This document shows, in pieces, positions 11,043 through 60,253 of a stretch of DNA of 64,000 nt. The stretch's first letter is position 1, and every line of letters starts with the position of its first letter. A program made the position numbers and the translations under genes. This DNA is from Escherichia coli (GTDB lineage Bacteria; Pseudomonadota; Gammaproteobacteria; Enterobacterales; Enterobacteriaceae): assembly GCF_024502345.1 (NCBI RefSeq), contig NZ_JALDNN010000001.1; one strand, 5' to 3'. The notes under the pieces are model-generated. The model was not told the DNA's origin and did not search any database. It was given only the letters and a program-made list of their open reading frames with translations.

Positions 11043-11292
11043 TCCCGGACCTCGTGCACAGGTAGGACCAATTTTTCTGTTCTTAACTCGCAAAACACGC
11101 ACATCACGCAAGTGATTATGTTACATCAATTTAACATTGAGTTAACCAAGGCAAGGTCACAGAGCTGGAAAAAAAATGGTCTGACCGGTAGCTAAAGAGA
11201 TAGACGAAAACGAAAAGCCCGCTTAATAACTGTTCACAGAAGCAGCGCGCAAAAATCAGCTGCCACACAACACAACAAAGCGAAGCCTACTC
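11043..11292. promoter_or_regulatory. glcC-glcD divergent promoter region
   Basis: Non-coding region between divergent glcC and glcD starts; function inferred from E. coli knowledge. Confidence 0.5.
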
Positions 11293-12792: not shown

Positions 12793-13844
12793 TGCTACGC
12801 GAGTGTGATTACAGCCAGGCGCTGCTGGAGCAGGTGAATCAGGCAATTAGCGATAAAACGCCGCTGGTGATTCAGGGCAGCAATAGCAAAGCCTTTTTAG
12901 GTCGCCCTGTCACCGGGCAAACGCTGGATGTGCGTTGTCATCGCGGCATTGTTAATTACGACCCGACCGAGCTGGTGATAACCGCGCGTGCCGGAACGCC
13001 GCTGGTGGCGATTGAAGCGGCGCTGGAGAGCGCCGGGCAAATGCTCCCCTGCGAGCCGCCGCATTATGGTGAAGAAGCCACCTGGGGCGGGATGGTCGCC
13101 TGCGGGCTGGCGGGGCCGCGTCGCCCGTGGAGCGGTTCGGTCCGCGATTTTGTCCTCGGCACGCGCATCATTACCGGCGCTGGAAAACATCTGCGTTTTG
13201 GTGGCGAAGTGATGAAAAACGTTGCCGGATACGATCTCTCACGGTTAATGGCCGGAAGCTACGGTTGTCTTGGCGTGCTCACTGAAATCTCGATGAAAGT
13301 GTTACCGCGACCGCGCGCCTCCCTGAGCCTGCGTCGGGAAATCAGCCTGCAAGAAGCCATGAACGAAATCGCCCAGTGGCAACTCCAGCCGCTACCCATT
13401 AGTGGCTTATGTTACTTCGACAATGCGTTGTGGATCCGCCTTGAGGGCGGCGAAGGATCGGTAAAAGCGGCGCGTGAACTGCTGGGGGGCGAAGAGGTTG
13501 CGGGTCAGTTCTGGCAGCAATTGCGTGAACAACAACTGCCGTTCTTCTCGTTACCAGGTACCTTATGGCGCATTTCATTACCCAGCGATGCGCCGATGAT
13601 GGATTTACCCGGCGAGCAACTGATCGACTGGGGCGGTGCGTTACGCTGGCTGAAATCGACAGCCGAGGACAATCAAATCCATCGCATCGCCCGCAACGCT
13701 GGCGGTCATGCGACCCGCTTTAGTGCCGGAGATGGTGGCTTTGCCCCGCTATCGGCTCCTTTATTCCGCTATCACCAGCAGCTTAAACAGCAGCTCGACC
13801 CTTGCGGCGTGTTTAACCCCGGTCGCATGTACGCGGAACTTTGA
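12792..13844 (+). CDS. glcE: Glycolate oxidase subunit GlcE
   Basis: 350 aa; start overlaps glcD stop. Confidence 0.95.
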   Translation: MLRECDYSQALLEQVNQAISDKTPLVIQGSNSKAFLGRPVTGQTLDVRCHRGIVNYDPTELVITARAGTPLVAIEAALESAGQMLPCEPPHYGEEATWGGMVACGLAGPRRPWSGSVRDFVLGTRIITGAGKHLRFGGEVMKNVAGYDLSRLMAGSYGCLGVLTEISMKVLPRPRASLSLRREISLQEAMNEIAQWQLQPLPISGLCYFDNALWIRLEGGEGSVKAARELLGGEEVAGQFWQQLREQQLPFFSLPGTLWRISLPSDAPMMDLPGEQLIDWGGALRWLKSTAEDNQIHRIARNAGGHATRFSAGDGGFAPLSAPLFRYHQQLKQQLDPCGVFNPGRMYAEL

Positions 13845-15508: not shown

Positions 15509-17680
15509 ATGAGTCAAACCATAACCCAGGGCCGTTTACGCATTGACGCCAATTTTAAACGTTTTGTGGATGAAGAAGTTTTACCGGGAACAGGGCTGGA
15601 CGCTGCGGCGTTCTGGCGCAATTTTGATGAAATCGTTCACGATCTGGCACCAGAAAATCGTCAGTTGCTGGCAGAACGCGATCGCATTCAGGCGGCGCTT
15701 GATGAGTGGCATCGCAGCAATCCGGGGCCGGTAAAAGATAAAGCGGCCTATAAATCTTTCCTGCGTGAACTGGGCTACCTGGTGCCGCAACCGGAGCGCG
15801 TGACGGTGGAAACCACGGGCATTGACAGCGAAATCACCAGTCAGGCGGGGCCACAGCTGGTGGTTCCGGCAATGAACGCCCGCTACGCGCTGAACGCGGC
15901 GAACGCTCGCTGGGGCTCACTGTACGATGCGTTATACGGCAGCGACATCATCCCGCAGGAAGGGGCGATGGTCAGCGGCTACGATCCGCAACGCGGTGAG
16001 CAGGTTATCGCCTGGGTTCGGCGTTTCCTCGATGAATCTCTACCGCTGGAAAACGGCAGCTATCAGGATGTGGTGGCGTTTAAGGTGGTCGATAAACAAT
16101 TACGCATCCAGTTGAAAAATGGTAAAGAAACCACGTTACGTACCCCGGCGCAGTTTGTCGGTTACCGTGGCGATGCCGCTGCGCCGACCTGCATTTTGCT
16201 GAAAAATAACGGCCTGCATATTGAACTGCAAATTGATGCCAACGGGCGGATTGGCAAAGACGATCCGGCGCACATCAACGATGTTATCGTCGAAGCGGCC
16301 ATCAGTACCATTCTCGACTGCGAAGATTCGGTCGCGGCGGTTGATGCGGAAGATAAAATCCTGCTGTACCGCAATCTGCTGGGCCTGATGCAGGGGACTC
16401 TGCAAGAGAAAATGGAGAAAAACGGTCGACAAATCGTGCGTAAACTGAATGACGATCGTCATTACACCGCCGCCGATGGCTCTGAAATTTCTCTGCACGG
16501 ACGCTCGCTGCTGTTTATCCGCAACGTGGGTCATTTGATGACCATTCCTGTGATTTGGGACAGCGAAGGCAATGAAATCCCGGAAGGCATTCTTGATGGC
16601 GTCATGACTGGCGCGATTGCCCTCTATGATTTAAAAGTGCAGAAAAACTCGCGCACTGGCAGCGTCTATATTGTGAAACCGAAAATGCACGGTCCGCAGG
16701 AAGTGGCGTTCGCCAACAAACTGTTTACCCGCATTGAGACAATGCTCGGTATGGCACCGAATACCCTGAAAATGGGCATTATGGATGAAGAACGTCGGAC
16801 CTCGCTGAACTTGCGTAGCTGTATCGCTCAGGCGCGCAACCGCGTGGCGTTCATCAATACCGGTTTCCTCGACCGTACCGGCGATGAAATGCATTCGGTG
16901 ATGGAAGCTGGCCCGATGCTGCGTAAAAATCAGATGAAATCGACGCCGTGGATCAAAGCCTACGAGCGTAATAACGTGCTTTCCGGCCTGTTCTGTGGGC
17001 TGCGCGGTAAAGCGCAAATCGGTAAAGGCATGTGGGCAATGCCGGACCTGATGGCAGACATGTACAGCCAGAAGGGCGACCAACTGCGTGCCGGGGCAAA
17101 CACAGCCTGGGTTCCGTCACCAACCGCTGCTACGCTCCATGCGCTGCACTACCACCAAACCAACGTACAGAGCGTGCAAGCCAACATTGCCCAGACCGAG
17201 TTTAATGCTGAATTTGAACCGCTGCTGGACGATCTGCTGACTATTCCGGTTGCTGAAAACGCTAACTGGTCGGCGCAAGAGATCCAACAAGAGCTGGATA
17301 ACAACGTGCAGGGGATTCTGGGGTACGTGGTGCGCTGGGTGGAGCAGGGGATTGGTTGTTCAAAAGTGCCGGATATTCACAATGTGGCGCTGATGGAAGA
17401 CCGCGCAACGCTGCGTATCTCCAGCCAGCATATCGCCAACTGGTTACGTCACGGTATTCTGACCAAAGAACAGGTGCAGGCGTCGCTGGAGAATATGGCG
17501 AAAGTGGTTGATCAGCAAAACGCTGGCGATCCGGCTTATCGTCCGATGGCGGGGAATTTCGCTAACTCGTGTGCTTTTAAAGCTGCCAGCGATTTGATCT
17601 TCCTCGGCGTGAAACAGCCAAACGGTTATACCGAACCGTTATTACACGCCTGGCGTTTACGCGAAAAAGAAAGTCATTAA
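15509..17680 (+). CDS. glcB: Malate synthase G
   Basis: 723 aa, glc operon position. Confidence 0.95.
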
Positions 17681-18034
17681 TAGCGTCAAAAAAGCCCCGG
17701 CAAGTTTTATTGTCGGGGCTATGATAGTAACTGCGGTAGTACATTTATCCCGGAAATAACCGGAGCGATTATCAGGGTTTAACAATATTAAATACCCGTA
17801 GCGCATTACTAGCGGGCCTAAAACAACAATATGGACATCTTAACGATACTCTGCGCCTGCGTGTGCGGAACAGAAACCCTTACCCGATATACTTGTTATG
17901 CCAGAGGTAGCAATTGCGTTAGCGGCGTACTGTTGCTGTAAAGTATAACGCCTATATTTTACAGTTCAGTCCTCTTTTGCTTATTACAACCTTAAGTATA
18001 TCAAGCATATAAAGATAATAAGAGACTGAACAAT

Positions 18035-19717
18035 ATGGTTACCTGGACCCAAATGTATATGCCGATGGGAGGACTGGGGCTATCCGCTCTGGTCGCCCTG
18101 ATCCCGATAATATTCTTCTTCGTTGCACTCGCGGTATTACGTCTGAAAGGACATGTCGCTGGAGCAATAACCCTTATATTATCTATCCTGATTGCAATAT
18201 TCGCCTTTAAAATGCCGATTGATATGGCTTTTGCTGCTGCGGGCTATGGCTTTATTTATGGATTATGGCCTATTGCGTGGATTATTGTCGCGGCGGTGTT
18301 CCTCTATAAATTAACCGTTGCCAGCGGTCAGTTCGATATTATCCGCAGCTCGGTTATCTCCATCACCGACGATCAGCGTTTGCAGGTGTTACTGATTGGT
18401 TTCTCCTTTGGTGCGTTGCTGGAAGGAGCGGCTGGCTTTGGTGCGCCGGTGGCGATTACCGGTGCGCTGCTGGTGGGCCTGGGCTTCAAACCGTTATACG
18501 CGGCGGGGCTGTGTCTGATTGCCAACACTGCGCCAGTGGCGTTTGGTGCGTTGGGCGTGCCGATTCTGGTCGCCGGTCAGGTAACGGGAATCGATCCGTT
18601 CCACATTGGCGCAATGGCGGGACGTCAGTTACCGTTCCTGTCGGTTCTTGTGCCGTTCTGGCTGGTAGCAATGATGGACGGCTGGAAAGGGGTGAAAGAG
18701 ACGTGGCCAGCGGCGCTGGTTGCTGGGGGAAGCTTCGCTGTCACTCAGTTCTTTACCTCTAACTATATTGGTCCGGAACTGCCGGATATTACTTCGGCGC
18801 TGGTGAGTATCGTCTCACTCGCTTTATTCCTTAAAGTCTGGCGGCCGAAAAATACCGAAACGGCAATCAGCATGGGGCAATCCGCAGGTGCGATGGTGGT
18901 AAATAAGCCATCTTCTGGCGGTCCCGTGCCTTCAGAATATAGTCTGGGGCAAATCATTCGTGCGTGGTCACCGTTTTTAATCTTAACGGTGCTGGTCACC
19001 ATCTGGACCATGAAGCCGTTTAAAGCGTTATTTGCTCCGGGCGGCGCGTTTTATTCACTGGTGATTAATTTCCAGATCCCTCATTTGCATCAACAAGTGT
19101 TGAAAGCGGCACCCATTGTCGCCCAACCAACGCCAATGGATGCGGTGTTTAAATTCGACCCTCTCTCGGCTGGCGGCACCGCTATTTTTATTGCGGCGAT
19201 TATCTCTATCTTCATCCTCGGCGTGGGCATCAAGAAAGGGATTGGCGTCTTTGCCGAAACGCTAATTAGTCTGAAGTGGCCGATATTGTCGATTGGCATG
19301 GTGCTGGCGTTCGCCTTCGTCACCAACTATTCCGGCATGTCCACCACGCTGGCGCTGGTACTGGCAGGTACAGGCGTGATGTTCCCGTTTTTCTCACCGT
19401 TCCTCGGCTGGCTGGGGGTATTCCTTACCGGCTCGGACACTTCTTCAAACGCCCTGTTTGGTTCACTGCAATCGACCACGGCGCAGCAAATCAATGTCTC
19501 TGACACTCTGCTGGTGGCAGCAAATACCAGCGGCGGCGTAACTGGCAAGATGATCTCCCCGCAATCTATCGCCGTGGCCTGCGCCGCGACGGGCATGGTG
19601 GGCCGAGAATCTGAACTATTCCGCTACACCGTGAAGCACAGTCTGATTTTTGCCAGCGTTATCGGCGTTATCACGTTGTTGCAGGCGTATGTGTTTACTG
19701 GAATGTTGGTCTCGTAA
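18035..19717 (+). CDS. glcA: Glycolate/lactate permease GlcA (LctP family)
   Basis: 560-aa multi-TM protein at end of glc operon. Confidence 0.95.
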
Positions 19718-19726
19718 ATCAATAAT

Positions 19727-19760
19727 GCCGGATGATCGTTAATATCATCCGGCTTCATTT
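19727..19760 (+). terminator. Rho-independent terminator candidate after glcA
   Basis: Perfect 10-bp inverted repeat gccggatgat / atcatccggc with 7-nt loop, followed by T-rich tract. Confidence 0.5.
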
Positions 19761-20202
19761 ACATTATTCTGTCTTATTAATTGAAAATTATTTCTCGCTT
19801 TATTATCCATGCGGCAATAATGTTTTGTGTTCAGATAACCTGATAAATAATTAAGAGCGTGAGAACATCTATTTTTTTTATCACGCAAAACAAGTCTGTA
19901 TTAATTATGTTCGCTTGATGAGCAAACACCGTTCTATCTGTTGCTTTTGCAATCTTAATCGTTAAAACTACCAACGAATTTATATAGTTGCGTTGTGAAA
20001 TGTTGTTAATTTTTTGTTTATTGAAATTTCGTAAAAATAGCCAGCCAGACATCAAATAGGGGTTATTCTTATAAATTTCACCTGTTTTCTATCAATGATG
20101 TCGTTTTCTTAAGAATGGAGGAAATTATTAAAGAAGATAAAGCATAAAACTATTTCTCCCAGTTACGAATTTTTTAACATTGTTTTGTCACTTGCGTTAT
20201 TA

Positions 20203-21300
<1,098 letters not shown>

Positions 21301-21399
21301 TATTACTGTCGCCTGTAAATAACCGGCACAGTGCGAACACCATGCCGGGAGATTATGGCTGACAAAACGGGAACGACAGGATCCCGCTGTTGTCGGGGG

Positions 21400-23082
21400 T
21401 CAGAAGGTTTCCCAGTTCTCGCTGGCGTGTTGTTCCGTTTCACGAACGGACTTTACCGCTTTAACCTTACTCTGCGGGCTGGTGTTGCTGATTGTCGGTA
21501 CTATGGTATTTTTTCGTTCAGCATCGCGTTTTTTATTATCACGGAGACGAAATACGCTCACCTTCTCCTGCAGAATCCGTGACTGATTCTGCAACGAAGC
21601 GGCAGTGGCTGCAGACTGTTCCACCAGAGCTGCATTTTGTTGGGTGGTGCTGTCTATCTGGCCCATGGCGCTGTTAATCTGGGCAATACCATCTCCCTGC
21701 TCACGACTGGCCTTGGCTATTTCGTCAATCAGCCCTTCCATGCTCTGGACGTTACTGATGATATCCTCCATTCCCCTGTCTGCTTTTTCAACCAGGGTAC
21801 GGCCGGATGCAATGCGGGAAACGGAGTCATCAATGAGCTCTTTTATTTCCCGCGCGGCAGAAGCACTGCGCTGAGCCAGATTACGAACCTCTCCGGCCAC
21901 AACCGCAAATCCACGGCCGGACTCGCCGGCGCGTGCGGCTTCCACGGCAGCATTAAGCGCGAGAATGTTGGTCTGGAAGGCAATCCCGTCGATGACCTGG
22001 ATGATGGCTGTCATTTCAGACGAGGTGTCGTAAATCTCCTGCATCCGGGAAGACACCTCACTCATGACCACTCCATTCTGTTTCACAATGGCCGTTGTTT
22101 CTGTCACAAACTGGTAAACCTGTGCTGTATTGCCGGCAGTATTGTTTATGGTGGCCGTCAGTTGTTCCAGAGTGGCCGCCGTCTGTTCCACACCGGCAGC
22201 CTGCTCTTCGGTGCGGGCTGACAGGTCTGTATTACCACTGCTGATTTCTGCTGCAGTCAGCGCAATATTGTCCGCTCCCTGACGTACTTCCCGGACGGTG
22301 TTACTCAGACTCCCGCACATATCACGCAGTGCCTGCATCAGTTGCCCCAGCTGGTCCTGTGAGTCCACTTTAATCTCCACACACAGGTTACCTTCCGCCA
22401 CTTCCCGGGCAATCCGGACGGCTGAAATCAACGGACTGGTAATGCTTCTGGTGATCAGCCATGCCAGCACACCTCCCAGAAGAAGCGCCATACACCCAGT
22501 GATGATCAGTGTCAGTATGGCTGCCGTACCATTATCAGCGATAACTTCACCCGCTTTATCTATGCTTGTTTTTTCGTATTCCACCAGTGCCTGCAGACTG
22601 GCCATGTAGTCATTTATGATCGGTAATTGCTGTGACTCAATGAAGTGGTTCAGGGCTTCACGGTCCCCCTGCTCACTGATCTGAAGAGCTTTTACCAGGG
22701 TATCTGCATACACCTGACGCTTTTCACCAATGGTTTTCAGCAGCTTAATACCCTGCTCTGAAGTAAGCTCCCTGTTAAATTTATCCTGCAGTATATCCAC
22801 GCGAGCACGGGTTTTCTCTATCCGCTGCTGTGCATATGTCCTGATATCCGGGTCCCCCGACGTCAGCAGAACCAGTCCAAGCGCACCGTTTGATTCAATA
22901 CCGGTCTGCCATTCATTCGCCATACGCTCCTGCAGAAGATAATTATTCATCACGCGATCGGTGGAAGTGAGCATAGAGTTCAGGTACCCCACTCCGGTCA
23001 CTGTCATGATCATGATAAGAACCAGAATTAGGCTGAAGCTGCCAGCCAGCCTGATACCCACACTAAAGTCTTTGATTTTCAT
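21400..23082 (-). CDS. Methyl-accepting chemotaxis protein, four-helix-bundle sensor, HAMP, Tar/Tsr-like signalling domain, C-terminal NWETF
   Basis: 560 aa; signalling domain VIDGIAFQTNILALNAAVEAARAGESGRGFAVVAGEVRNLA, methylation-region motifs, NWETF pentapeptide. Confidence 0.85.
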   Translation of the reverse strand: MKIKDFSVGIRLAGSFSLILVLIMIMTVTGVGYLNSMLTSTDRVMNNYLLQERMANEWQTGIESNGALGLVLLTSGDPDIRTYAQQRIEKTRARVDILQDKFNRELTSEQGIKLLKTIGEKRQVYADTLVKALQISEQGDREALNHFIESQQLPIINDYMASLQALVEYEKTSIDKAGEVIADNGTAAILTLIITGCMALLLGGVLAWLITRSITSPLISAVRIAREVAEGNLCVEIKVDSQDQLGQLMQALRDMCGSLSNTVREVRQGADNIALTAAEISSGNTDLSARTEEQAAGVEQTAATLEQLTATINNTAGNTAQVYQFVTETTAIVKQNGVVMSEVSSRMQEIYDTSSEMTAIIQVIDGIAFQTNILALNAAVEAARAGESGRGFAVVAGEVRNLAQRSASAAREIKELIDDSVSRIASGRTLVEKADRGMEDIISNVQSMEGLIDEIAKASREQGDGIAQINSAMGQIDSTTQQNAALVEQSAATAASLQNQSRILQEKVSVFRLRDNKKRDAERKNTIVPTISNTSPQSKVKAVKSVRETEQHASENWETF

Positions 23083-23380
23083 TTTATTACCCGTGAATGA
23101 AGCTGGTTATTTCGGACCCCGGTGTCCCTGACAAATAACTGGTGCCTCCAGACTTATTTATGAGGAATCATATTTTGATTAACGAGATCTGTTATCGGTA
23201 TCAGTGTGCCTGAATGGAGTATGTCAGACACGACCACTTAATACCCCGAAGCGTCCTGCCAAAAAAGACCAGACGGTGAGGGCTGGTCTGAAATCTGACA
23301 ATGTCTATGGGGTCTACCGTTGCGTAGAGGGCTGTCACAACGTTAATAAGATTATCGGCAACAGTCCGGTAAACTTTAAC

Positions 23381-24028
23381 GGCACTGTTGCAAATAGTCG
23401 GTGGTGATAAACTTATCATCCCCTTTTGCTGATGGAGCTGCACATGAACCCATTCAAAGGCCGGCATTTTCAGCGTGACATCATTCTGTGGGCCGTACGC
23501 TGGTACTGCAAATACGGCATCAGTTACCGTGAGCTGCAGGAGATGCTGGCTGAACGCGGAGTGAATGTCGATCACTCCACGATTTACCGCTGGGTTCAGC
23601 GTTATGCGCCTGAAATGGAAAAACGGCTGCGCTGGTACTGGCGTAACCCTTCCGATCTTTGCCCGTGGCACATGGATGAAACCTACGTGAAGGTCAATGG
23701 CCGCTGGGCGTATCTGTACCGGGCCGTCGACAGCCGGGGCCGCACTGTCGATTTTTATCTCTCCTCCCGTCGTAACAGCAAAGCTGCATACCGGTTTCTG
23801 GGTAAAATCCTCAACAACGTGAAGAAGTGGCAGATCCCGCGATTCATCAACACGGATAAAGCGCCCGCCTATGGTCGCGCGCTTGCTCTGCTCAAACGCG
23901 AAGGCCGGTGCCCGTCTGACGTTGAACACCGACAGATTAAGTACCGGAACAACGTGATTGAATGCGATCATGGCAAACTGAAACGGATAATCGGCGCCAC
24001 GCTGGGATTTAAATCCATGAAGACGGCT
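23381..24028 (+). mobile_element. IS26, 3'-truncated (left IR plus ~648 bp)
   Basis: Left IR GGCACTGTTGCAAA at 23381-23394; transposase matches IS26 Tnp to ...ATLGFKSMKTA, then sequence diverges; right IR absent. Confidence 0.85.
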
Positions 24029-24031
24029 TAA
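23444..24031 (+). pseudogene. tnpA: IS26 transposase, C-terminally truncated (195 of ~234 aa)
   Basis: MNPFKGRHFQRDIILWAVRWYCKYGISYRELQEMLAERGVNVDHSTIYRWVQRYAPEMEKRL...; stop created at junction. Confidence 0.8.
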
Positions 24032-24531
24032 CGGACATAACCTACATCAGGACCCACGAAGGCTGGCTGTATCTTGCCGTGGTGGTTGATCTGTTCTCAC
24101 GCAAAATTATCGGCTGGTCCATGCAATCCCGGATGACAAAGGACATTGTCCTGAACGCACTGCTGATGGCCGTATGGCGGCGTAATCCCCAAAAACAGGT
24201 GCTGGTTCATTCGGATCAGGGCAGTCAGTACACAAGCCATGAGTGGCAGTCGTTCCTGAAATCACACGGCCTGGAGGGCAGCATGAGCCGTCGCGGTAAT
24301 TGCCATGATAATGTGGTTGCAGAAAGCTTTTTCCAGTTGTTGAAACGCGAACGGATAAAGAAAAAGATCTACGGAACGCGGGAAGAAGCCCGCAGCGATA
24401 TTTTTGATTACATCGAAATGTTTTATAACAGTAAGCGTCGGCATGGTTCCAGCGATCAGATGTCACCGACAGAATATGAAAACCAGTATTATCAACGGCT
24501 CGGAAGTGTCTAGATTATCTGTGGCGATTCA
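24029..24531 (+). mobile_element. IS3-family orfB 3' fragment (~160 C-terminal codons) abutting truncated IS26
   Basis: Translation LTDITYIRTHEGWLYLAVVVDLFSRKIIGWSM...HSDQGSQYTS...SMSRRGNCHDNVVAESFF (DDE integrase core). Confidence 0.65.
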
Positions 24532-24546
24532 TATCTTGGAATATAA

Positions 24547-25017
24547 ATGTTAAAAAAATTAATAACTTTTTCTGCCATCCTGTGTACGGGACAAGCATGG
24601 GCTGCATGTGTGGATGGTGCAGCTGGCCCAAACGGCGTAGATAGTGCCACCGAAGGTAGTACCTGCGATAACAGCGGTACGTCATATATAGGGAATAATA
24701 CCGCTTATGCGAGCGGGTCAGGTTCTGTTCTTAATTTCTTACCTGGAACTGTAATCAGTAGTAATGGTGTTGCTGCCGTTTATACGCTTGCCGTGGGAGG
24801 AGTCAATAGTGGCGGTTCGATCCCTGGAGCTGGAGCAACGGTTCATGCAAAAGGAGATTTAACAGTTAATGGGAATGCTCTGGGCAGTACTCGGAGTATT
24901 TTTATCTTTTCTGGTACAGATGCAGGGGGAAAACGTAACTCACTTCAGATAGATGGAAACCTGACTGCAACGAGGACTGGCGGTCTTTATGGGGCTGTTA
25001 TAGGTGATAATGCCTGA
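24547..25017 (+). pseudogene. Autotransporter/adhesin-like secreted protein, N-terminal fragment (signal peptide plus Gly/Ser/Thr-rich beta-helix-like region)
   Basis: Signal peptide MLKKLITFSAILCTGQAWA followed by G/S/T/N-rich repeats; ORF ends where the antisense integrase fragment begins. Confidence 0.4.
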
Positions 25018-25548
25018 CTGGGCAGCATAGCGCATGATTGCAGTGATACGCTGCTGAAGGCGCGCTGCAATCTCATAAATCTCTTTGGCTTCGGCTGCCT
25101 TTACTGGAACAAGTAAATCGGGAGTTCTGAGGGTGGTAATGTCACGTGAACCGATAAAGGGAAACACATGAGTTTCTAGGCTTTTCAGTATCTTCTCACT
25201 ATGTGAGGCTGACCATTTTTTGTTGCTCTTATGCCACTGCCTTGCGATGCCTTCAAATGTCTGAGCTGTTTCGGGTACCGACTTTTTGATTCGTTTCTGT
25301 TCGCACGGGTCAGTTCCTTCAGCTATCTGCTTTCTCGCCGCATCGCGTTTTTCCCTTGCTTCTGATAACGAGACTTCAGGATAGACACCCAGGGCGAGCG
25401 TTTTCTCTTTGCCCAGAAACCGGTAGCGGAGTCGCCAGTAGCGCGAGCCGTTAGGGTGAACGAGCAAAAACATGTTGCCGCTGTCGGCAAGTTTATAAGG
25501 TTTTTCATCCGGTTTAGCTGCACGGATTTTAGCGTCAGTGAGCGCCAT
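25018..25548 (-). pseudogene. P4-type tyrosine integrase, N-terminal ~175 codons only (catalytic domain missing)
   Basis: MALTDAKIRAAKPDEKPYKLADSGNMFLLVHPNGSRYWRLRYRFLGKEKTLALGVYPEVSLSEAREKRDAARK matches P4/CP4 integrase N-termini; ~195 bp downstream of the tRNA-Phe terminator. Confidence 0.75.
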
Positions 25549-25743: not shown

Positions 25744-25792
25744 TGGTGCCCGGACTCGGAATCGAACCAAGGACACGGGGATTTTCAATCCC
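25744..25792 (-). tRNA. tRNA-Phe (pheV/pheU type), 3'-terminal 49 nt only; island attachment-site remnant
   Basis: TGGTGCCCGGACTCGGAATCGAACCAAGGACACGGGGATTTTCAATCCC is the reverse complement of the tRNA-Phe 3' end including CCA; homology stops inside the anticodon arm. Confidence 0.8.
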
Positions 25793-26069: not shown

Positions 26070-26414
26070 CTAAAATAGCCGAGCAGCAAACGCCAAAACA
26101 ACAATACTAACATTACCATTAACTGTCGCGATGGTTCTGAGTCGATCGTCTTTAAGTGTTTTACCATCAAATGTTGCGATGGTGCGGAGTCGATCGTCTT
26201 TCAGGGTCTTGCCATCAAAGGTAGCGATGGTGCGGAGTCGGTCGTCTTTCAGGGTTTTACCGTCAAAAGTTGAGATGGTTCTGAGCCGGTCGTCTTTCAG
26301 GGTTTTACCGTCAAACGTTGCGATGGTCCTGAGCCGGTCGTCTTTCAGGGTTTTACCGTCAAAGGTAGCGATGGTACGGAGTCGATCGTCTTTTATAGTT
26401 ACGCTCATAAGCAT
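26070..26414 (-). CDS. Small protein made almost entirely of ~5.5 tandem 16-aa repeats (DGKTLKDDRLRTIATF)
   Basis: ATG at 26414 preceded by AGGAG at 7-nt spacing; the overlapping plus-strand ORF lacks an SD. Confidence 0.5.
   Translation of the reverse strand: MLMSVTIKDDRLRTIATFDGKTLKDDRLRTIATFDGKTLKDDRLRTISTFDGKTLKDDRLRTIATFDGKTLKDDRLRTIATFDGKTLKDDRLRTIATVNGNVSIVVLAFAARLF
26127..26395. repeat. 48-bp direct tandem repeat array, ~5.5 copies, slightly degenerate
   Basis: Unit cgatggtNNNgagNcgNtcgtctttcagggttttaccNtcaaaNgtNg repeated head-to-tail. Confidence 0.85.
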
Positions 26415-26629: not shown

Positions 26630-29600
26630 CTAGAGGTGTCCTCCAACCCCTTTAAATTTTTCGATAAATGCCCCAATTTTCTGGAATACAGTCTGCTTTT
26701 TCGTTTTGTACTGAGGATTCAGCGGACTGAGCTTTGGTAGCGTCTCATTTAGCTCCGTCCCATTTTCGGTGGCATACTCCCGTTTTAGTGATGTGCGGAT
26801 ATAGCGCCTTGCAGCCTCTTCATTGAGGTTTTCTTCCTTAATCAACGCCTCTGCTTCCCGTTGCTGTTCACGCTGAGCATAGGTAAAGAATGCATCAATG
26901 ATACTGGCCTTGTCCGGCATGTCATCAAGGTTAGTTTGCTGAATAAAGTCAACAATCAGACCTTCTTTGGCACGGTTGCCCAGACTTGAGCGGATTAAGC
27001 GTCTGACCTCTTCAGTCAGGGCTTCTTTACCTTTTTTCTGACGATTGTGGTCGAAAATCAGACCAAGGATGTAATCCAGGTTAATTTCCTGCGACTTCAG
27101 CAGGTCAATTTCAAACACCACGTCATCCCAGTCTGTGGTTGATTTATCCCTGTCGTTTGATGCTTTTTCGCGTCGCTGCCAGTCCCGGATATCATTGTAT
27201 GCTGAGCGATAGTCCTGAACTTTACGTTCTGCCGGGAGACGAATGGTTTGTAATTCAGCAAATTTTTCATCATCCACATAGTGCTCTGCTTTAAAGGTTT
27301 CTACCGCTTCCGGGTCACTAATATCAACCTTCTGCAGGGCTTTCAGCGTGGCAAATTCATCATAGTTTTGCAGGATGTTTTCTGCCCGCAGATATTCACC
27401 AAACAGTTTGACGAAGGCTTTTTTCTCTTTTTCACTGTCGATACTGGCAGGGTCAGGGAAGCGCTGCTCCAGCTCAGAGACAACAGCCATAAAACCTCGT
27501 TTAGCCTCACCGGTTGCCGCATCGGTAAAGCCCTGCATGTACTCTTCGTAGCTTTTTTCCAGCACCACATTCTTGGTGTTTTTGTCGCCGAAAAGTGTGA
27601 TGGCATCAATGGTCGGACGCTCCAGGTCCCTGAAAGTCACGATATTGCCGAAGGTTTTGGTTGCATCATAGATACGGTTGGTGCGTGAGAATGCCTGCAT
27701 CAGACCGTGATAACGCAGGTTTTTGTCAACGAACAGAGTATTGAGCGTCGGAGCATCAAAGCCAGTCAAGAACATTCCCACCACGATGAGAAGGTCAATA
27801 TCCTGATTTTTCACTCGTTGAGCTAAATCGCGGTAGTAGTTCTGGAAACCGTTACTGTCGGTGCTGAAATTGGTTTTAAAGTGGTTGTTATAGTCATCAA
27901 TGGCTGAATCCAGGAATTCCTTTGCGCTGCTGTTCATTGCACTGGTATCAAAACTTTCGTCGGTAATATCACCAATAGCGCTTTGCTCTTCATTAGCAGC
28001 AAAAGAGAAGATGGTTGCCACACGAAGACGTTTATAGCTGCCAGATTTCTTCTCAGCTTCTTCCTGTAGCATTTTAAATGTCGTGTAATAAGCTTTTGCC
28101 GCGTCCACGCTGCTCACTGCTAACATGGCATTGAAGCCTTTTGCTCCCGGGAAGGTACGATGCGTTTTCTGGCGGAAGTTATTGAGAATGTATTGCGTTA
28201 TTTCCTGGATACGCAGTGGGTGCAGAAAGGCCTGGTGGTTTTCAGCCGCGCTGAGTTTTTTCTCATCAGTTTCCGTTTCAAGAGACTTAAACTGTGGGCG
28301 GACATCGTTATAGTCCACCTTAAACTTCAGCACTTTTTCATCACGAATCGCATCAGTAATGACGTAAGAATGTAATTCACGCCCGAAGACGCTGGCGGTG
28401 GTTTCTGCCCCCAGTGCGTTTTCCGGGAAAATAGGTGTACCGGTAAAACCAAACTGATAAAAGCTTCTGAATTTCTTTTTGAGGTTTTTCTGGGCCTCAC
28501 CAAACTGGCTGCGGTGACACTCATCAAAGATAAACACAACCTGCTGCTGATAGACGGGCAGGTCAGCTTCGGCTTTCATCAGGTTATTGAGTTTCTGAAT
28601 GGTTGTGACGATAATTTTGTTATCGTCCTTATCCAGGTTTCTTCTGAGGCCAGCTGTATTATCCGAACCATTCACACTGTCCGGAGAGAAGCGCTGATAC
28701 TCCTTCATGGTCTGGTAATCGAGGTCTTTCCTGTCGACCACGAAGAAGACTTTATCAATAAAGTCCAGCTCGGTTGCCAGACGTGCGGCCTTAAAACTGG
28801 TCAACGTTTTACCGCTACCTGTGGTATGCCAGATAAACCCGCCGCTTTCGGGTTTTGACCAGTTCTTCGCTTTAAATGAGCTGTTAATTTTCCAGAGGAT
28901 TCGCTCAGTGGCAGCAATCTGATAGGGGCGCATGACGAGCAGCGTCTGGCTGCTGTCAAACACGCTGTAATTAAACAGAACATTCAGCAGAGTATGCTTC
29001 TGGAAGAAAGTGGCGGTAAAGTCCTTCAGGTCCTTAATCAGAGTGTTATCCGACTTTGCCCAGTTCATGGTGAAATCAAAGCTATTTTTATCCCGTTTAG
29101 TGGTACTGGCAAAGTACCGGGTATCAGTCCCGTTGGAAATCACGAAGAGTTGCAGGTATTTAAACAGGGAGTTATCGCTGTTAAAGCTTTCCTTGCTGTA
29201 ACGGTGTATCTGGTTAAAGGCTTCACGAATCGCCACACCGCGTTTTTTGAGTTCGATTTGCACCAGTGGAAGGCCGTTGACCAGAATGGTGACGTCATAA
29301 CGGTTAGCGTGTGAGCCAGTCTGCTCAAACTGCTGAATGACCTGCACCTTATTGCGCAGCAGGTTCTTTTTATCTATCAGATAGATGTTTTCCAGACGAC
29401 CATCATCAAACGTAAAATCACAGATATAGTCGATATGGATTTTACGGGTTTTGTCCAGGCTGCTGTCACTGGGACTGTCCAGATACTGCTCTGCGAAGCG
29501 CCGCCATTCACTTTCGTTAAACACCACACCATTAAGACGCTGAAGCTGGTCTCGCACATTCGCCAGCATCGCAGCCGGTGACTTAACGGAGATAAACTCA

Positions 29601-29746
29601 TACCCCTGATTAAGAAGGTCTTGAATCAGCTCCCGCTCAAGGTCCGATTCGCTCTGGTAACTCTCACCAGTTTCCTGAGCTTTAGAGTACTTATCAAGGA
29701 CGATAAAGTTATTGGATTCAGCAATAGTATGTGTCTGTTGTGTCAT
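26630..29746 (-). CDS. hsdR: Type I restriction enzyme R subunit (HsdR)
   Basis: 1038 aa; DEAD/DEAH-type helicase motifs (TGSGKT, DECH) in an HsdR-like architecture. Confidence 0.9.
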
Positions 29747-29861: not shown

Positions 29862-31087
<1,226 letters not shown>

Positions 31088-31091
<4 letters not shown>

Positions 31092-32644
31092 TTCTGCACC
31101 TCGCAGCCTTCAATTTCAGCCACAATCGCATCAATATCTTTGCGCAACTGGTCGATTTTGCTGACCGTGGTTTTCAGCTCTGCATTCAACTCAGCGATAT
31201 CGATAATTTCGCGAGTATCTTTCGCTTCCACATAGCTGCTCACCGACAGGTTATAGTCATTCGCGACAACAGTCTCAAACGCAACAGATTTCGCCAGATG
31301 AGCAACATCTTCCTTGCTGGCAAATACCTGCATAATTTGTTCGATATGGGCATCGGTCAGGATATTGTTGTTGGTCTCTTTTTTGAATAGTTCACTGGCG
31401 TCAATAAACTGAACTTTGGTATCGGTTTTATGTTTAGACAACACCAGAATATTGACGGCAATAGTGGTGCCAAAGAACAGGTTCGGTGCCAGTGAAATCA
31501 CGGTTTCGACATAGTTATTGTCAACCAGGTACTGTCGGATTTTCTGCTCTGCACCGCCACGGTAAAAAATACCGGGGAAGCAAACTATTGCTGCACGCCC
31601 TTTAGCAGACAGGTAGTTCAGCGCATGTAGGACAAATGCAAAGTCCGCTTTTGATTTCGGGGCCAGTACACCAGCTGGAGCAAAGCGCTCATCGTTAATC
31701 AGGGTCGGGTCGTCACTGCCAATCCACTTAACCGAGTACGGCGGGTTAGAGACAATCGCATCGAACGGTTTTTCATCGCCAAAGTGAGGCTCAGTCAGGG
31801 TATTCCCCAGTCTGATATCAAATTTGTCGTAGTTGATGTTGTGCAGGAACATGTTCATACGCGCCAGGTTAAAGGTTGTATGATTTATCTCCTGACCATA
31901 AAAACCTTCTTCAATGATATGGTTATCAAAGTGCTTCTTCGCCTGAAGCAGCAGTGAACCAGAGCCAGCGGCAGGGTCATAGATTTTGTTGACGTGAGTC
32001 TGACCGTGCATCGCAAGCTGAGCAATCAGCTTGGAGACGTGCTGAGGTGTGAAGAACTCCCCTCCAGACTTACCGGCATTTGCCGCATAGTTAGAAATCA
32101 GGAACTCGTAGGCATCACCAAACAGGTCAATCTGGTGCTCGTTAAAATTCCCCAGGTTAAGCCCTTCAACGCCTTTCAGAACGGCGGCAAGACGGCTGTT
32201 TTTGTCTTTAACTGTGTTACCCAGTCGATTGCTGGTCGTATCGAAATCGGCGAACAGGCCTTTGATGTCGGCCTCGGACGGATAGCCGTAGGCAGAGCTT
32301 TCTATAGCGACGAAGATACTATTTAAATCAGCATTCAGCCTGTCGTTGGTGTTCGCTTTAGCGGCAACGTTGCAGAACAGCTGGCTCGGGTAGATGAAAT
32401 AGCCTTTAGTCCTGATGGCATCGTCTTTGATGTCATCGGTAATGATGCTGTCATCAAGTGCTGCATAATGTATGCTCTCATCCCCTGCTTCCATGTAGCT
32501 GGAAAAATTCTCACTGATGAAGCGGTAGAAAAGTGCACCGAGTACATACTGTTTAAAATCCCATCCATCTACTGAGCCCCTGACATCATTGGCAATGGCC
32601 CAGATTTGACGGTGTAGCTCTGCACGCTGTTGAAGGCTTGTCAT
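31088..32644 (-). CDS. hsdM: Type I R-M N6-adenine DNA methyltransferase subunit (HsdM)
   Basis: 518 aa with NPPY catalytic motif ([10 protein letters not shown]); stop overlaps hsdS start. Confidence 0.9.
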
Positions 32645-32847: not shown

Positions 32848-34725
32848 TCAGTCGGTGAGAATTTCTTCATCCGTATCCATTGTGGATGGTGATGAATCTA
32901 TTTTTGTTGTAAGAAATACCCGATTCAGTAGTCTTTGCTTCAGGGCGTTTCTTCGCTCATTGTAGAATTCCGGGAAGTGACTGAACTCAATATTTTCATC
33001 TGAAACTAACAGCATTGATGGCGAATAGTTGTTTGATGGCTGAGATAGCCATTGTTTCAGGGAAGTATCCTGTTTACTTATATTCTGAGAGTGATTCAGT
33101 AAATGAAGATTCGGTATGGTGTCCCAGTATTCCGGATTTTCATAAAAGCTGAGCTTCTCAGGTGAATTCGCAATATAATCTAGTTTTTCAAGATATTTCT
33201 TTGAAAAATGATTTCTTGGGTGAAGGTGATCAATATGAAATACCTCGGTTGGATTCATTTCAGGGAACAGAAGATGCAATAGTGCGCGGCAACGACCTTC
33301 GCCATATCTGATATTGAGAAGGCTTTCGATGTATTCGTCGTCAAATCTGAGGTCTTTATTCGAGCCTTTATATCTGTCAATAATCTTTTCAAGAGGAAAG
33401 TGAATATCTGAAAGACTATTTTTCATTACCTCTCTGATACTCGTGAGTAGCGCATCTGCCTGGCTTCCAAAGATCCCTTTCAGAAGTACCATGTAAAACC
33501 ACTGGCTAATTACTGAGCGTTCATTGTGGTTTTTATTCAGGAGGTTAATCGTTGTATATAATGGATGTCCACTGGTTTGCTTTTTGTAAAGCCAGTAGAC
33601 CACAGGAATGACTGCATTTTTAGATATCAAAGACTGTGGATTGATGCCGAATCGCCTGATAAGAATAAAGGTCTCCTTGATACAGGATTTTATTTCAGAC
33701 CATTGTTGTTGTATCTTACCGACCTCCTCTGAAGTGAAGTTTTTTACTTTGAACCGGACGTCAGAGTCAATAAGCATCAGGCTGGTTTTTAAGAACCAGT
33801 CTCTTTCAATATAAAAACCCATTTCATTATTCTGATAAATGTTTTTTGTCAGTTCATCCAGTTCTCTTCTGAAATCCCCCTGCCAGTGCGCTACCGCTAT
33901 TGACATCAGTAAGTCTGAAAACTCAAGTTTTGTCCCCCCGCTGTTCGTGCGGATGAAAACATCCAGCACATGATCAATGTCCTGACTGCTCTCATTGAAG
34001 TAGTGGATAAGATTCTCAGTTCTTATCTTGGTATAAAGTTTAAGCAGAGTTTTTCTGGAAAATTCACTGGAAATGAGATCTCTTTTTTCAAGTTCTGGTA
34101 CGACAACGTTAAATAAAATATCATCAGGCGAATCATGTTGCTCGTATTTGAATATTTCGTGCAGGCAGAACCAGTGATGTTTGTTGTCTGTAAGTGAATC
34201 AGCGTATTGCTTGTCGGTCAGGAACCTGAAGTTATACTTCATCATGAGTTCGTCGTCTGACTTAAGTGGCGCGGTTAAATCGACGTAAAGCTTTCTGGGC
34301 GGCAGGATGCGATCATCCTGTGCCGAAGGCCACCACATCCGGGGCTGTTTATACGCATACGTTCCACACAATCCAATATATAATGATGTGAGACGCTGCT
34401 GACCATCAATCACCGCTTTGAAATCATGAAATCCAGCATTTGTTGCTACGCAGGGGTTTTCTTCATTAAATCGCTGACAGTATTCTTTCAGGAATTCATA
34501 GAATTTGTAATCATTTTTAATACTGGCACTACGGATATCCCACATCATGAAAGAGTTTATCGGGTAGTCTCGCATGATGGAATCAAACAGCAAACATATC
34601 TGACTGCTGCTCCAGACGAACTTCCTCTGAATTGCAGGCAGAAGATAGTGGCGTAAATTAATTGAATCTATCGCTTGTTTTATCGTTATTGCTTTTTCAT
34701 ACTGGCCAGCCATCATAAACCTCAT
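32848..34725 (-). CDS. DUF262 (ParB/GmrS-like) plus DUF1524 (His-Me finger, GmrD-like) two-domain protein; candidate Type IV (modification-dependent) restriction or defense nuclease
   Basis: 625 aa; N-terminal ...IQRKFVW...VIDGQQRLTSLYIGL; C-terminal HIDHLHPRNHFSKK; AT-rich coding sequence. Confidence 0.75.
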   Translation of the reverse strand: MRFMMAGQYEKAITIKQAIDSINLRHYLLPAIQRKFVWSSSQICLLFDSIMRDYPINSFMMWDIRSASIKNDYKFYEFLKEYCQRFNEENPCVATNAGFHDFKAVIDGQQRLTSLYIGLCGTYAYKQPRMWWPSAQDDRILPPRKLYVDLTAPLKSDDELMMKYNFRFLTDKQYADSLTDNKHHWFCLHEIFKYEQHDSPDDILFNVVVPELEKRDLISSEFSRKTLLKLYTKIRTENLIHYFNESSQDIDHVLDVFIRTNSGGTKLEFSDLLMSIAVAHWQGDFRRELDELTKNIYQNNEMGFYIERDWFLKTSLMLIDSDVRFKVKNFTSEEVGKIQQQWSEIKSCIKETFILIRRFGINPQSLISKNAVIPVVYWLYKKQTSGHPLYTTINLLNKNHNERSVISQWFYMVLLKGIFGSQADALLTSIREVMKNSLSDIHFPLEKIIDRYKGSNKDLRFDDEYIESLLNIRYGEGRCRALLHLLFPEMNPTEVFHIDHLHPRNHFSKKYLEKLDYIANSPEKLSFYENPEYWDTIPNLHLLNHSQNISKQDTSLKQWLSQPSNNYSPSMLLVSDENIEFSHFPEFYNERRNALKQRLLNRVFLTTKIDSSPSTMDTDEEILTD

Positions 34726-59024: not shown

Positions 59025-59281
59025 ACCATTGTCAACCCCGTCAAATTCGCGGCAATCGAATTTGACGACATAGTGACCAAAAAGGTTTGCACCGCCCCGG
59101 GAACGGAACGAGGCAACAGACTTTACGATTTGTCGGCGCTGACTAAAATAGCGCCGATGTTTCAAATCGAGGATTGTTGTTATGTTGTTCTGGAAAAAGA
59201 TGGTGAAGAAGTTCGACGCCTTTTCCGGTGATGCTGCCAACTTACTGATTTAGTGTATGATGGTGTTTTTGAGGTGCTCCA

Positions 59282-59557
59282 GTGGCTTCTGTTTCTATCA
59301 GCTGTCCCTCCTGTTCAGCTACTGACGGGGTGGTGCGTAACGGCAAAAGCACCGCCGGACATCAGCGCTATCTCTGCTCTCACTGCCGTAAAACATGGCA
59401 ACTGCAGTTCACTTACACCGCTTCTCAACCCGGTACGCACCAGAAAATCATTGATATGGCCATGAATGGCGTTGGATGCCGGGCAACCGCCCGCATTATG
59501 GGCGTTGGCCTCAACACGATTTTCCGCCATTTAAAAAACTCAGGCCGCAGTCGGTAA
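59282..59557 (+). CDS. insA: IS1 InsA
   Basis: 91 aa [43 protein letters not shown]... Confidence 0.85.
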
Positions 59558-59979: not shown

Positions 59980-60253
59980 GTTGGAGTCATTACCGACCGG
60001 GTTAAACCGGAAATGCGACACCTCGGAAGTGTCTCCTGAAAACCTTTCATCAGTACGCTCATCATGCTGTTCATAGAGTAGTCCAAATACAGTACCGTAC
60101 AGTACGGTACGTTTTATATCTTGACTTCTGAGCGCCGTCAAATGAAAATGTACTCGTCAGTACGATTACGAACCCTACTATCTGACGTGATTCCGAAATC
60201 TGAGAACAAAAAGTGTTGGCCCCGGCCAGACACCTAAACTAACGAGGAAACAT

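What the first reader, a model, noticed from the sequence alone, without database searches (positions are those of the whole stretch)
23381..24531. Truncated IS26 fused in-line to an IS3-family orfB tail
IS26 is intact from its left IR through codon 195 of the transposase, then switches abruptly at ~24029 into the C-terminal half of an IS3-family OrfB. There is no IS26 right IR. A chimeric IS junction of this kind points to illegitimate recombination or deletion, or to a mis-join.
Basis: seen in the sequence. Interest (0 to 1): 0.35.

Follow-up and report, generated by a model that had tools for sequence, protein, structure and literature searches.

The report
Dead IS26 joined to IS3-family tail
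Two broken jumping genes (the first 650 bp of IS26 and the last 501 bp of an IS3-family element) are joined at an ordinary rearrangement scar in an E. coli genomic island; the join is real and inherited, not an assembly error.

Summary
IS26 runs from its left inverted repeat (23381) to bp 650 (24030) at 100% identity. A TAA stop created by the junction follows codon 195. The next 501 bp (24031-24531) are bp 760-1260 of an unnamed 1,260-bp IS3-family element ("ISx"), ending in its right inverted repeat. They lie on the same strand but out of frame. No IS26 right inverted repeat exists in the 64 kb.

The junction is not a mis-join. It recurs in an independent metagenome contig and in a draft genome whose neighbouring DNA differs. 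It is not a simple deletion either. In four complete E. coli genomes IS26 is whole and points the opposite way, 4-9 kb from the ISx tail.

In the window a 3.5-kb block (IS30 fragment, ISx head, hypothetical gene, chemoreceptor gene, IS26) is flipped. It is bounded by two junctions that lie at no IS end and share 4 bp and 2 bp of homology. Two further scars lie nearby.

The best reading is a stepwise history: an IS-associated inversion followed by microhomology-level deletions, which left two immobile IS relics. This is ordinary genomic-island decay and of low interest. Breakpoints that coincide with transposon insertion sites seen elsewhere remain unexplained.

The parts
23381..24030 (+). Truncated IS26 (bp 1-650 of 820). 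Left IR at 23381-23394; tnp26 codons 1-195 at 23444-24028; junction-created TAA at 24029-24031. The right IR and the last 39 codons are missing.
24029..24030 (.). J3: the IS26 | ISx joint. The dinucleotide TA is shared by both parent sequences.
   Evidence: recurs in L006 and L017
24031..24531 (+). Tail of an unnamed 1,260-bp IS3-family element 'ISx' (bp 760-1260). OrfB C-terminal 160 codons at 24031-24510, stop at 24511-24513, right IR ending ...GATTCA at 24531.
20719..20998 (-). Head of the same ISx (bp 1-280: left IR plus most of orfA). It is inverted relative to the tail and lies 3 kb away.
20507..20721 (+). Internal 215-bp IS30 fragment (bp 392-606). On the left, J1 joins it to truncated sslE (20507-20510, TAAC shared). 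On the right, J2 joins it to the ISx head (20719-20721, TAC shared).
20999..23380 (-). Cargo of the flipped block: a hypothetical gene (20983-21300), a methyl-accepting chemotaxis protein gene (21400-23082) and the native flank of the IS26 left IR. It is 99.97% identical, in reverse orientation, to E. coli C 236-04A.
24532..25001 (+). 5' fragment of an autotransporter passenger gene (ORF 24547-25017). At J4 (24997-25001, GTTAT shared) it is cut and joined to a truncated P4-type integrase gene.
24940..25548 (-). N-terminal half (arm-binding and central domains) of the pheV-island integrase. The catalytic domain has been deleted.
25744..25792 (-). The 3' 49 nt of tRNA-Phe (pheV), an att-like remnant. 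Beyond it the sequence belongs to another island.

Best explanation
The feature is a non-functional, vertically inherited scar in the pheV genomic island of a gut E. coli lineage.

Shown:
- IS26 bp 1-650 is joined to ISx bp 760-1260 at a point that is no transposon end. The parents share only TA.
- The joint is the right-hand boundary of a 3.5-kb block (IS30 fragment, ISx head, hypothetical gene, MCP gene, IS26). This block lies in the opposite orientation to genomes where IS26, IS30 and ISx are intact.
- The left-hand boundary (J1) is another microhomology joint.
- About 4.4 kb on one side of the block and about 0.8 kb on the other side are missing.

Inferred mechanism (stepwise):
1. An older 0.68-kb deletion (J2) occurred inside an ISx::IS30 composite.
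2. The IS26-to-IS30 block was inverted. The most likely cause is intramolecular replicative transposition of the resident IS26 into IS30 near bp 392. That reaction flips the DNA between the IS and its target and leaves an IS26 copy at each end.
3. Two microhomology-mediated deletions followed, by end-joining or replication slippage and not by transposase. One removed the left IS26 copy (J1). The other removed the right 170 bp of the right-hand IS26 copy together with the IS30 remnant and ISx bp 345-759. That second deletion created J3.
4. J4 is a separate deletion.

Consequence: neither relic can move. IS26 has one IR and a truncated transposase. ISx has no left IR next to it, no orfA, no frameshift site and no start codon. 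They persist only as 650 bp and 500 bp of homology for RecA recombination with other copies.

The confidence of 0.5 is for the whole stepwise route. That J3 is a real, inherited joint not made by a transposase I put at about 0.9.
For: The joint is real.
- An exact 42-mer across J3 occurs in metagenome contig L006. L006 follows the window from 23976 to 25001 at 99.7% identity, then continues into an intact autotransporter gene.
- L017, from GCA_050022275.1, spans J3 and J4 and then diverges at 25766.
- J1 and J2 occur in the same draft genome (100% identity over 13,255 bp), in a second draft genome and in many human-gut metagenome contigs.

The joint is not a transposase product.
- It carries no IR, and the window has only one IS26 IR.
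- Shared bases at the four junctions are TAAC, TAC, TA and GTTAT.

An inversion is involved.
- Window 20719-24030 equals C 236-04A 11869-8558 reversed, at 99.97% identity. The flanking pieces are collinear.
- The IS26 left IR keeps its native flank, as expected for the second copy made by an IS26 intramolecular inversion.
- The block's other end is IS30 bp 392. An IS26 left IR abuts IS30 at exactly that base in strain VG888-46E9.
- Plasmid pEc4097 carries the same MCP module bounded by IS26, with an IS26 right IR abutting IS30 bp 395. IS26 has therefore acted on this module.

J2 arose separately.
- The identical joint sits at another chromosomal locus in L031.
- Relative to the ISx::IS30 arrangement in 77 complete genomes and 64 plasmids, J2 is a plain 0.68-kb deletion.

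Background: E. coli is reported to join ends at microhomologies using LigA (PMC4872102, citing Chayot et al. 2010).
Against: - No intermediate was found. No complete E. coli genome has a whole IS26 next to the ISx tail or the reciprocal joint. No PLSDB plasmid carries J3 or J2.
- The stepwise route needs a deletion (J1) that ends exactly at the former IS26/IS30 boundary. That is unexplained unless a transposase nick at the IS end started it.
- The two IS26|IS30 junctions seen elsewhere overlap by 4 bp, not by the 8-bp IS26 target duplication.
- The genomes with the identical ISx head allele and flank carry IS30 in the opposite orientation to the window. The direct ancestor has therefore not been sampled.
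- The window's ISx tail differs from theirs at 9 sites.
- A single two-switch replication event would give the same end product with fewer steps.
Confidence: 0.5

Rival explanations
1. One-step inversion without transposase. During replication or break repair the nascent strand switched template twice. It went from sslE to the opposite strand at IS30 bp 392 (TAAC), then from IS26 bp 650 back to the original strand at ISx bp 760 (TA). This flipped the block and dropped the DNA on both sides in a single MMBIR/FoSTeS-like or break-and-rejoin event.
For: - J1 and J3 are the two ends of the flipped block, and both are microhomology joints at non-IS-end positions.
- No intermediate or reciprocal joint exists in 5,426 complete genomes or in PLSDB.
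- J1, J2 and J3 co-occur in GCA_050022275.1.
- Template-switch models were derived partly from E. coli data (PMC2621351, PMC3161906).
Against: - It does not explain why J1 coincides with an IS26/IS30 boundary seen in VG888-46E9 and, within 4 bp, in pEc4097.
- It does not explain why J3 coincides with a Tn3-family insertion site in IS26.
- Co-occurrence could be tested in only one genome.
Confidence: 0.3
2. J3 formed elsewhere, on a plasmid or at another locus, between IS26 and a different ISx copy. It then entered the pheV island by homologous recombination, with one crossover in the last ~80 bp of the ISx tail.
For: - The window's ISx tail is identical over 24031-24512 to the allele found in heat-resistance-island copies (14EC047). 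A 152-bp stretch is 100% identical to Klebsiella plasmids.
- The same tail differs at 9 sites from the tail in C 236-04A.
- Its last 81 bp match the C 236-04A type.
Against: - No plasmid or other locus with J3 was found.
- The allele pattern is equally explained by gene conversion after the event, or if the C 236-04A tail is the recombinant one.
- IS26 keeps its native flank from the MCP module.
Confidence: 0.1
3. Simple deletion between an IS26 and an ISx that lay in the same orientation. No inversion was involved.
For: The two halves are co-oriented in the window, and deletions with 2-bp microhomology are common.
Against: - In every relative with the same IS26 flank and the same ISx/autotransporter flank, IS26 is in the opposite orientation to the ISx tail.
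- The MCP block between J2 and J3 is reversed.
Confidence: 0.05
4. Assembly mis-join or chimeric read.
For: Both halves are multicopy repeats, and repeats are where assemblies go wrong.
Against: - The joint occurs in two other assemblies. They come from different samples and assemblers, and their strain backgrounds differ around the joint.
- A 2-bp overlap cannot create a k-mer graph mis-join.
- Contigs start 55 bp and 77 bp inside IS26 and read through the joint.
Confidence: 0.02

Closest known systems
Truncated IS26 ('delta-IS26') remnants in resistance plasmids and genomic islands
   Same: It is a 100% identical IS26 fragment with one IR and a cut transposase gene, left by a later rearrangement. 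Such remnants are routinely reported: 56 papers hold at least two of the search terms, and the listed papers mention 'truncated IS26'.
   Different: Reported truncations that I recall are mostly caused by insertion of another element or by IS-end-mediated deletion. Here the partner is itself cut internally, so neither side of the joint is a transposon end.
IS26 intramolecular replicative transposition (inversion mode) and IS26 translocatable units
   Same: The flipped block keeps the native IS26 left-IR flank. The same MCP module is IS26-bounded on plasmid pEc4097, and an IS26 abuts IS30 bp 392 in VG888-46E9.
   Different: The defining products are absent from the window: two inversely oriented complete IS26 copies and an inverted 8-bp target duplication. 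If they existed, later deletions erased them.
Microhomology-mediated template switching (FoSTeS/MMBIR; PMC2621351) and E. coli alternative end-joining (Chayot 2010, cited in PMC4872102)
   Same: The junctions share 2-5 bp, the breakpoints are non-recurrent in sequence terms, and an inversion is combined with flanking deletions within about 10 kb.
   Different: No duplicated or triplicated segments were seen, and no genetic or experimental evidence is available. At least one neighbouring junction (J2) appears to have a separate history.
IS3-family insertion sequence (NF033516)
   Same: The tail encodes the OrfB catalytic (rve) region and ends with an IS3-type right IR (...CA). It is 99.6% identical to copies in other E. 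coli genomes.
   Different: Only bp 760-1260 lie at this position. The head (bp 1-280) lies 3 kb away in the opposite orientation and bp 281-759 are gone. NCBI annotation gives the element no specific IS name, and it is unrelated at DNA level to the ISEc52-family fragment annotated in VG888-46E9.

Membership tests
IS26 (IS6/IS26 family) as an intact element | 14-bp terminal inverted repeats at both ends | tested here: not met
   Only one copy of GGCACTGTTGCAAA (one mismatch allowed, both strands) in 64 kb, at 23381-23394.
IS26 (IS6/IS26 family) as an intact element | 820 bp encoding the 234-aa Tnp26 | tested here: not met
   650 bp and 195 codons followed by TAA. Profile NF033587 is covered at positions 1-187 of 202.
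IS26 (IS6/IS26 family) as an intact element | Sequence identity to IS26 | tested here: met
   100% identity over bp 1-650.
IS26 (IS6/IS26 family) as an intact element | 8-bp target site duplication | not testable with these tools
   The right end is absent, so no duplication can be read.
IS3 family as an intact element | orfA and orfB with a programmed -1 frameshift between IRs | tested here: not met
   Only the OrfB C-terminus (profile positions 221-369 of 369) lies at 24031-24513. The orfA fragment lies at 20684-20962 on the other strand.
IS3 family as an intact element | DDE (rve) catalytic domain | tested here: met
   PF00665 positions 10-102 of 102, E = 1.6e-30. NF033516 scores 226 bits against a cutoff of 160.
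IS3 family as an intact element | Terminal IRs (TG...CA) with a 3-4 bp target duplication | tested here: not met
   The right IR ends ...TCA at 24531 and the left IR starts TGTAG at 20998 on the minus strand. The flanks differ (GCT versus TAT), so there is no duplication.
IS26-mediated intramolecular inversion product | Flipped segment bounded by two inversely oriented IS26 copies with an inverted 8-bp duplication | tested here: not met
   One truncated IS26 only. The segment is flipped relative to relatives. The model requires that later deletions removed the second copy.
IS26-mediated intramolecular inversion product | Native IS-end/flank junction retained at the inner side of the flipped segment | tested here: met
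   The 81 bp left of the left IR are identical to the flank in five chromosomes and one plasmid.
Microhomology-mediated illegitimate junction (alternative end-joining or MMBIR type) | Junction at non-specific internal positions with 1-9 bp shared by both parents and no transposon end | tested here: met
   J3 shares TA. J1, J2 and J4 share TAAC, TAC and GTTAT.
Microhomology-mediated illegitimate junction (alternative end-joining or MMBIR type) | Dependence on LigA/RecBCD, or on break-induced replication functions | not testable with these tools
   Requires genetics.

The most novel reading that the evidence does not exclude
J1 and J3, and perhaps other junctions here, are not random. Each lies exactly where a transposon end sits in other genomes. 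IS30 bp 392 abuts an IS26 left IR in VG888-46E9. IS26 bp 650 is the boundary of Tn1/2/3-type and Tn3-type MITE insertions. All four junction microhomologies also contain TA. This would fit a recurrent process in natural E. coli: a transposase nick at an element end collapses a replication fork, and microhomology joining then deletes the whole element plus adjacent DNA. That would be a route for exact loss of replicative transposons and for inversion-with-deletion scars.
Probability: 0.15. Interest if true: 0.4.

Novelty: already known. Interest (0 to 1): 0.15.

Why it matters
It matters little for biology at large. It is one more example of how IS-rich genomic islands decay, with mobile elements cut and immobilised by illegitimate recombination.

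- For annotation: the 195-aa 'IS6 family transposase' and the 'IS3 family transposase' fragment are pseudogenes. Neither element can move. The chimera is not an assembly fault.
- For typing: the junction 42-mer (and likewise J1 and J2, which I did not screen as DNA patterns) was absent from 5,426 complete RefSeq E. coli genomes, PLSDB and the genome-contig collection (J1 and J2 checked in the E. coli genomes only; J2 also in PLSDB). They recur in gut metagenomes, so they could serve as lineage markers.
- The coincidence of breakpoints with transposon insertion sites is the only aspect that could lead to something new.

Tried and rejected
- **Translational fusion.** Rejected: the frames differ by +2 and a TAA stop sits at the joint.
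- **Transposition of one element into the other.** Rejected: neither side of J3 is an IR, and there is no target duplication.
- **Reciprocal joint inside the window.** No IS26 right end is present.
- **Reciprocal joint (ISx ..759 | IS26 651..) in complete E. coli genomes.** None found.
- **J3 in one genome per species.** The genome-contig scan gave 0 matches.
- **J3 and J2 on PLSDB plasmids.** None found.
- **Exact 195-aa truncated Tnp26 as a marker for J3.** Not specific. It is listed in 127 index blocks. None of the 10 places examined is J3; they are a Tn1/2/3-type transposon or a 209-bp Tn3-type MITE inserted at IS26 bp 646-650, scaffold N-gaps, or contig ends. None shares the window's IS26 flank.
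- **Group II intron involvement.** ABWA45 has an intron in ISx 11-15 bp from the J3 breakpoint. It is not at the same base and no intron sequence is present in the window.
- **Long inverted repeats that could have mediated the inversion.** None found.
- **J2 as a fold-back junction made together with J1 and J3.** Weakened: J2 is a plain deletion relative to the common ISx::IS30 arrangement and occurs at a second locus.
- **J2 with an intact IS30 left half, looked up by the predicted chimeric protein.** Nothing is on record. This is uninformative, because short-read contigs break inside IS30.
- **Naming ISx as ISEc52.** Rejected: the ISEc52-family fragment in VG888-46E9 has no DNA similarity to ISx.

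Full report
**What is there.** The window is E. coli chromosome around the pheV tRNA island (glcB, glcA, sslE ... integrase, tRNA-Phe).
- At 23381-23394 lies the IS26 left inverted repeat. It is the only copy of that 14-mer on either strand in 64 kb.
- Window 23381-24030 is 100% identical to bp 1-650 of an 820-bp IS26.
- tnp26 starts at 23444 and is intact through codon 195 (24028). The next triplet is TAA where IS26 has TAC.
- From 24031 the sequence is bp 760-1260 of a 1,260-bp IS3-family element, here called ISx. I reconstructed ISx from strain C 236-04A. NCBI annotation gives it no specific IS name.
- The 160 codons at 24031-24510 match the IS3 transposase profile at positions 221-369 of 369 and the rve domains.
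- The element ends with its right IR at 24531.
- The two reading frames are offset by +2, so the 'fusion' is in the DNA only.
- The parents share just TA at the joint: IS26 ...GGCTTA|CGCC and ISx ...TGGGTA|ACGG.

**Real or artefact.** No complete RefSeq E. coli genome (5,426 genomes) and no PLSDB plasmid spans the joint. One genome per species in the genome-contig collection also gave nothing.
- An exact 42-mer across the joint does occur in metagenome contig OGWT01009660.1 (L006). L006 matches the window from 23976 to 25001 with three mismatches. It then continues into an intact autotransporter gene that the window lacks.
- NCBI draft GCA_050022275.1 carries the joint on a 2.3-kb contig (L017). 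That contig leaves the window at 25766, inside the tRNA remnant, so a different island lies next door.

The window and these two assemblies thus come from three sources, and the strain backgrounds differ around the same joint. A 2-bp overlap could not produce a k-mer graph mis-join. The joint is real and inherited.

**Context.** Four complete genomes carry both halves unjoined: C 236-04A, 2021CK-01361, ABWA45 and 2273-PO3. I inspected the arrangement in C 236-04A and ABWA45.
- In those two IS26 is whole, lies 4-9 kb from the ISx tail and points the opposite way.
- In those two ISx is whole apart from an IS30 insertion at bp 344/345.

Against C 236-04A, the window consists of these pieces:

| Window | Source | Orientation |
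|---|---|---|
| 16354-20510 | glcB, glcA, 5' part of sslE | forward |
| 20507-20721 | IS30 bp 392-606 | forward |
| 20719-24030 | ISx bp 280-1, hypothetical gene, MCP gene, IS26 flank, IS26 bp 1-650 | reversed, 99.97% identical |
| 24029-25001 | ISx tail plus 5' part of an autotransporter gene | forward |
| 24997 onward | N-terminal half of the island integrase | forward |

Four junctions result. None is at an IS end.

| Junction | Window position | Shared bases |
|---|---|---|
| J1 | 20507-20510 | TAAC |
| J2 | 20719-20721 | TAC |
| J3 | 24029-24030 | TA |
| J4 | 24997-25001 | GTTAT |

All four recur in independent assemblies.
- J1 and J2 occur in GCA_050022275.1 (100% identity over 13,255 bp), in GCA_050023715.1 and in many human-gut metagenome contigs.
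- J4 occurs in ten contigs, among them two (L024 and L026) that carry no ISx at all.

**History.**
- J4 is separate from J3. L006 has J3 without J4, and L024/L026 have J4 without ISx.
- J2 is also separate.
  - The identical joint sits at another chromosomal locus in L031. There the ISx head allele equals the window's from bp 13 onward, which rules out a k-mer chimera.
  - At that locus 77 complete genomes carry ISx::IS30 with IS30 opposed to ISx. 64 plasmids carry the same ISx::IS30 arrangement. Relative to it J2 is a plain 0.68-kb deletion.
- That leaves J1 and J3 as the two ends of a flipped 3.5-kb block (20507-24030). About 4.4 kb is lost on one side: the rest of sslE', the cbtA-to-DUF905 genes and IS26 bp 651-820. 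About 0.8 kb is lost on the other side: IS30 bp 1-391 and ISx bp 345-759.

**Mechanism.** Intact elements cannot be regenerated from fragments, so the window arrangement is the derived one. Two routes fit.

Route A (stepwise):
1. The resident IS26 transposes replicatively into IS30 near bp 392 within the same molecule. By the established mechanism (my knowledge of IS26 and Tn3-type replicative transposition), this flips the intervening DNA and places an inverted IS26 copy at each end.
2. A microhomology deletion removes the left copy, giving J1.
3. Another removes the right copy's last 170 bp together with the IS30 remnant and ISx bp 345-759, giving J3.

Support for route A:
- The IS26 left IR keeps its native flank.
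- An IS26 left IR abuts IS30 at exactly bp 392 in strain VG888-46E9.
- Plasmid pEc4097 carries the same MCP module bounded by IS26, with an IS26 right IR abutting IS30 bp 395.

Route B (one step): two template switches, or a break-and-rejoin event, create J1 and J3 together in the manner of MMBIR/FoSTeS (PMC2621351, PMC3161906). Microhomology end-joining is also reported in E. coli (PMC4872102, citing Chayot et al. 2010).

Support for route B:
- No intermediate and no reciprocal joint were found.

I rate route A at about 0.45-0.5 and route B at about 0.3. Importation of a pre-formed joint rates about 0.1. The ISx tail allele suggests that last option: it is identical to heat-resistance-island copies over 24031-24512, yet differs at 9 sites from the C 236-04A tail. 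In every route J3 itself is a non-transposase, microhomology-level joint. I put that conclusion at about 0.9.

**Loose ends.**
- Route A needs J1 to end exactly at the former IS26/IS30 boundary.
- The two IS26|IS30 junctions seen elsewhere overlap by 4 bp, not 8.
- The genomes with the identical ISx head and flank carry IS30 in the other orientation.
- The J3 breakpoint in IS26 (bp 646-650, GCTTA) is also the insertion site of a Tn1/2/3-type transposon and of a 209-bp Tn3-type MITE in unrelated loci.
- All four microhomologies contain TA.

These coincidences might reflect AT-rich hot spots, or breakage started at transposon ends. I could not decide between the two.

**Verdict.** This is an ordinary scar of island decay. 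The feature is real, non-functional and already represented in public assemblies.

Noticed in passing
window 20507-20721 (J1 at 20507-20510, J2 at 20719-20721): A 215-bp internal IS30 fragment (bp 392-606) is wedged between a truncated sslE/yghJ gene (about 105 codons left) and the inverted ISx head. Both joints are microhomology scars (TAAC and TAC) and recur in draft genomes and gut metagenomes.
   Followed up: yes
window 24997-25001 (J4); ORFs 24547-25017 (+) and 24940-25548 (-): An autotransporter 5' fragment is joined to the N-terminal half of the pheV-island integrase gene, with GTTAT shared. The resulting 156-aa ORF is found unchanged in 10 independent contigs, including two that lack ISx. 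This scar therefore has its own history.
   Followed up: partly
window 25744-25792 and onward to about 40300: Only the 3' 49 nt of tRNA-Phe remain, and ARAGORN finds no tRNA in the whole window. Beyond the remnant lies another island. It carries a type I R-M system (hsdR 26630-29746, hsdS 29862-31091, hsdM 31088-32644), a GmrSD-like nuclease gene (32848-34725), two WYL/HTH regulator genes and a second integrase gene (37082-38404).
   Followed up: partly
window 26070-26414 (-): A 114-aa ORF is built from about 6 tandem 48-bp repeats (a 16-aa unit, KDDRLRTIATFDGKTL). It matches Pfam 'Bflower_2' (5-fold beta-flower).
   Followed up: no
L007, L008, L014, L015 (about 10588-10796 in L007); L010, L011: IS26 bp 646-650 (GCTTA) is hit in unrelated loci by two different Tn3-family elements with a 5-bp duplication. 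One is a 4,950-bp Tn1/2/3-type transposon. The other is a 209-bp MITE with Tn3-like IRs (GGGGTTTGAGGGCCAACCGTACG...). Both produce the same 195-aa truncated Tnp26 as the window. This may be an insertion or breakage hot spot.
   Followed up: partly
L041 (pEc4097, CP047278) 1361-7903; L043 (VG888-46E9, CP128581) 11240-12890: The MCP module is IS26-bounded on a 256-kb plasmid, with an IS26 right IR abutting IS30 bp 395. In another chromosome an IS26 left IR abuts IS30 bp 392. Together with window J1, three independent breakpoints fall within 4 bp of each other in IS30.
   Followed up: partly
L005 (ABWA45) about 15748-18014: A group II intron (ltrA) is inserted in ISx orfB at ISx bp about 771-775. 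That is 11-15 bp downstream of the position where the window's ISx is cut.
   Followed up: no
window 24084-24450 versus 24451-24531: The ISx tail is an allele mosaic. Nine sites match the copy next to heat-resistance islands (14EC047) and differ from C 236-04A. The last 81 bp match C 236-04A and differ from 14EC047 at two sites.
   Followed up: partly
L004 11934 and L040 4831 (ISx bp 344/345): IS30 sits at the identical position in two ISx alleles that are about 96% identical, but in opposite orientations. This fits IS30's known preference for specific hot-spot targets. The opposed arrangement is widespread (64 plasmids and many chromosomes).
   Followed up: partly
window 59227-59995: An IS1-family copy. 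It is 100% identical to the IS1B copies in VG888-46E9 and 92-95% identical to the IS1 copies in the reference islands.
   Followed up: no
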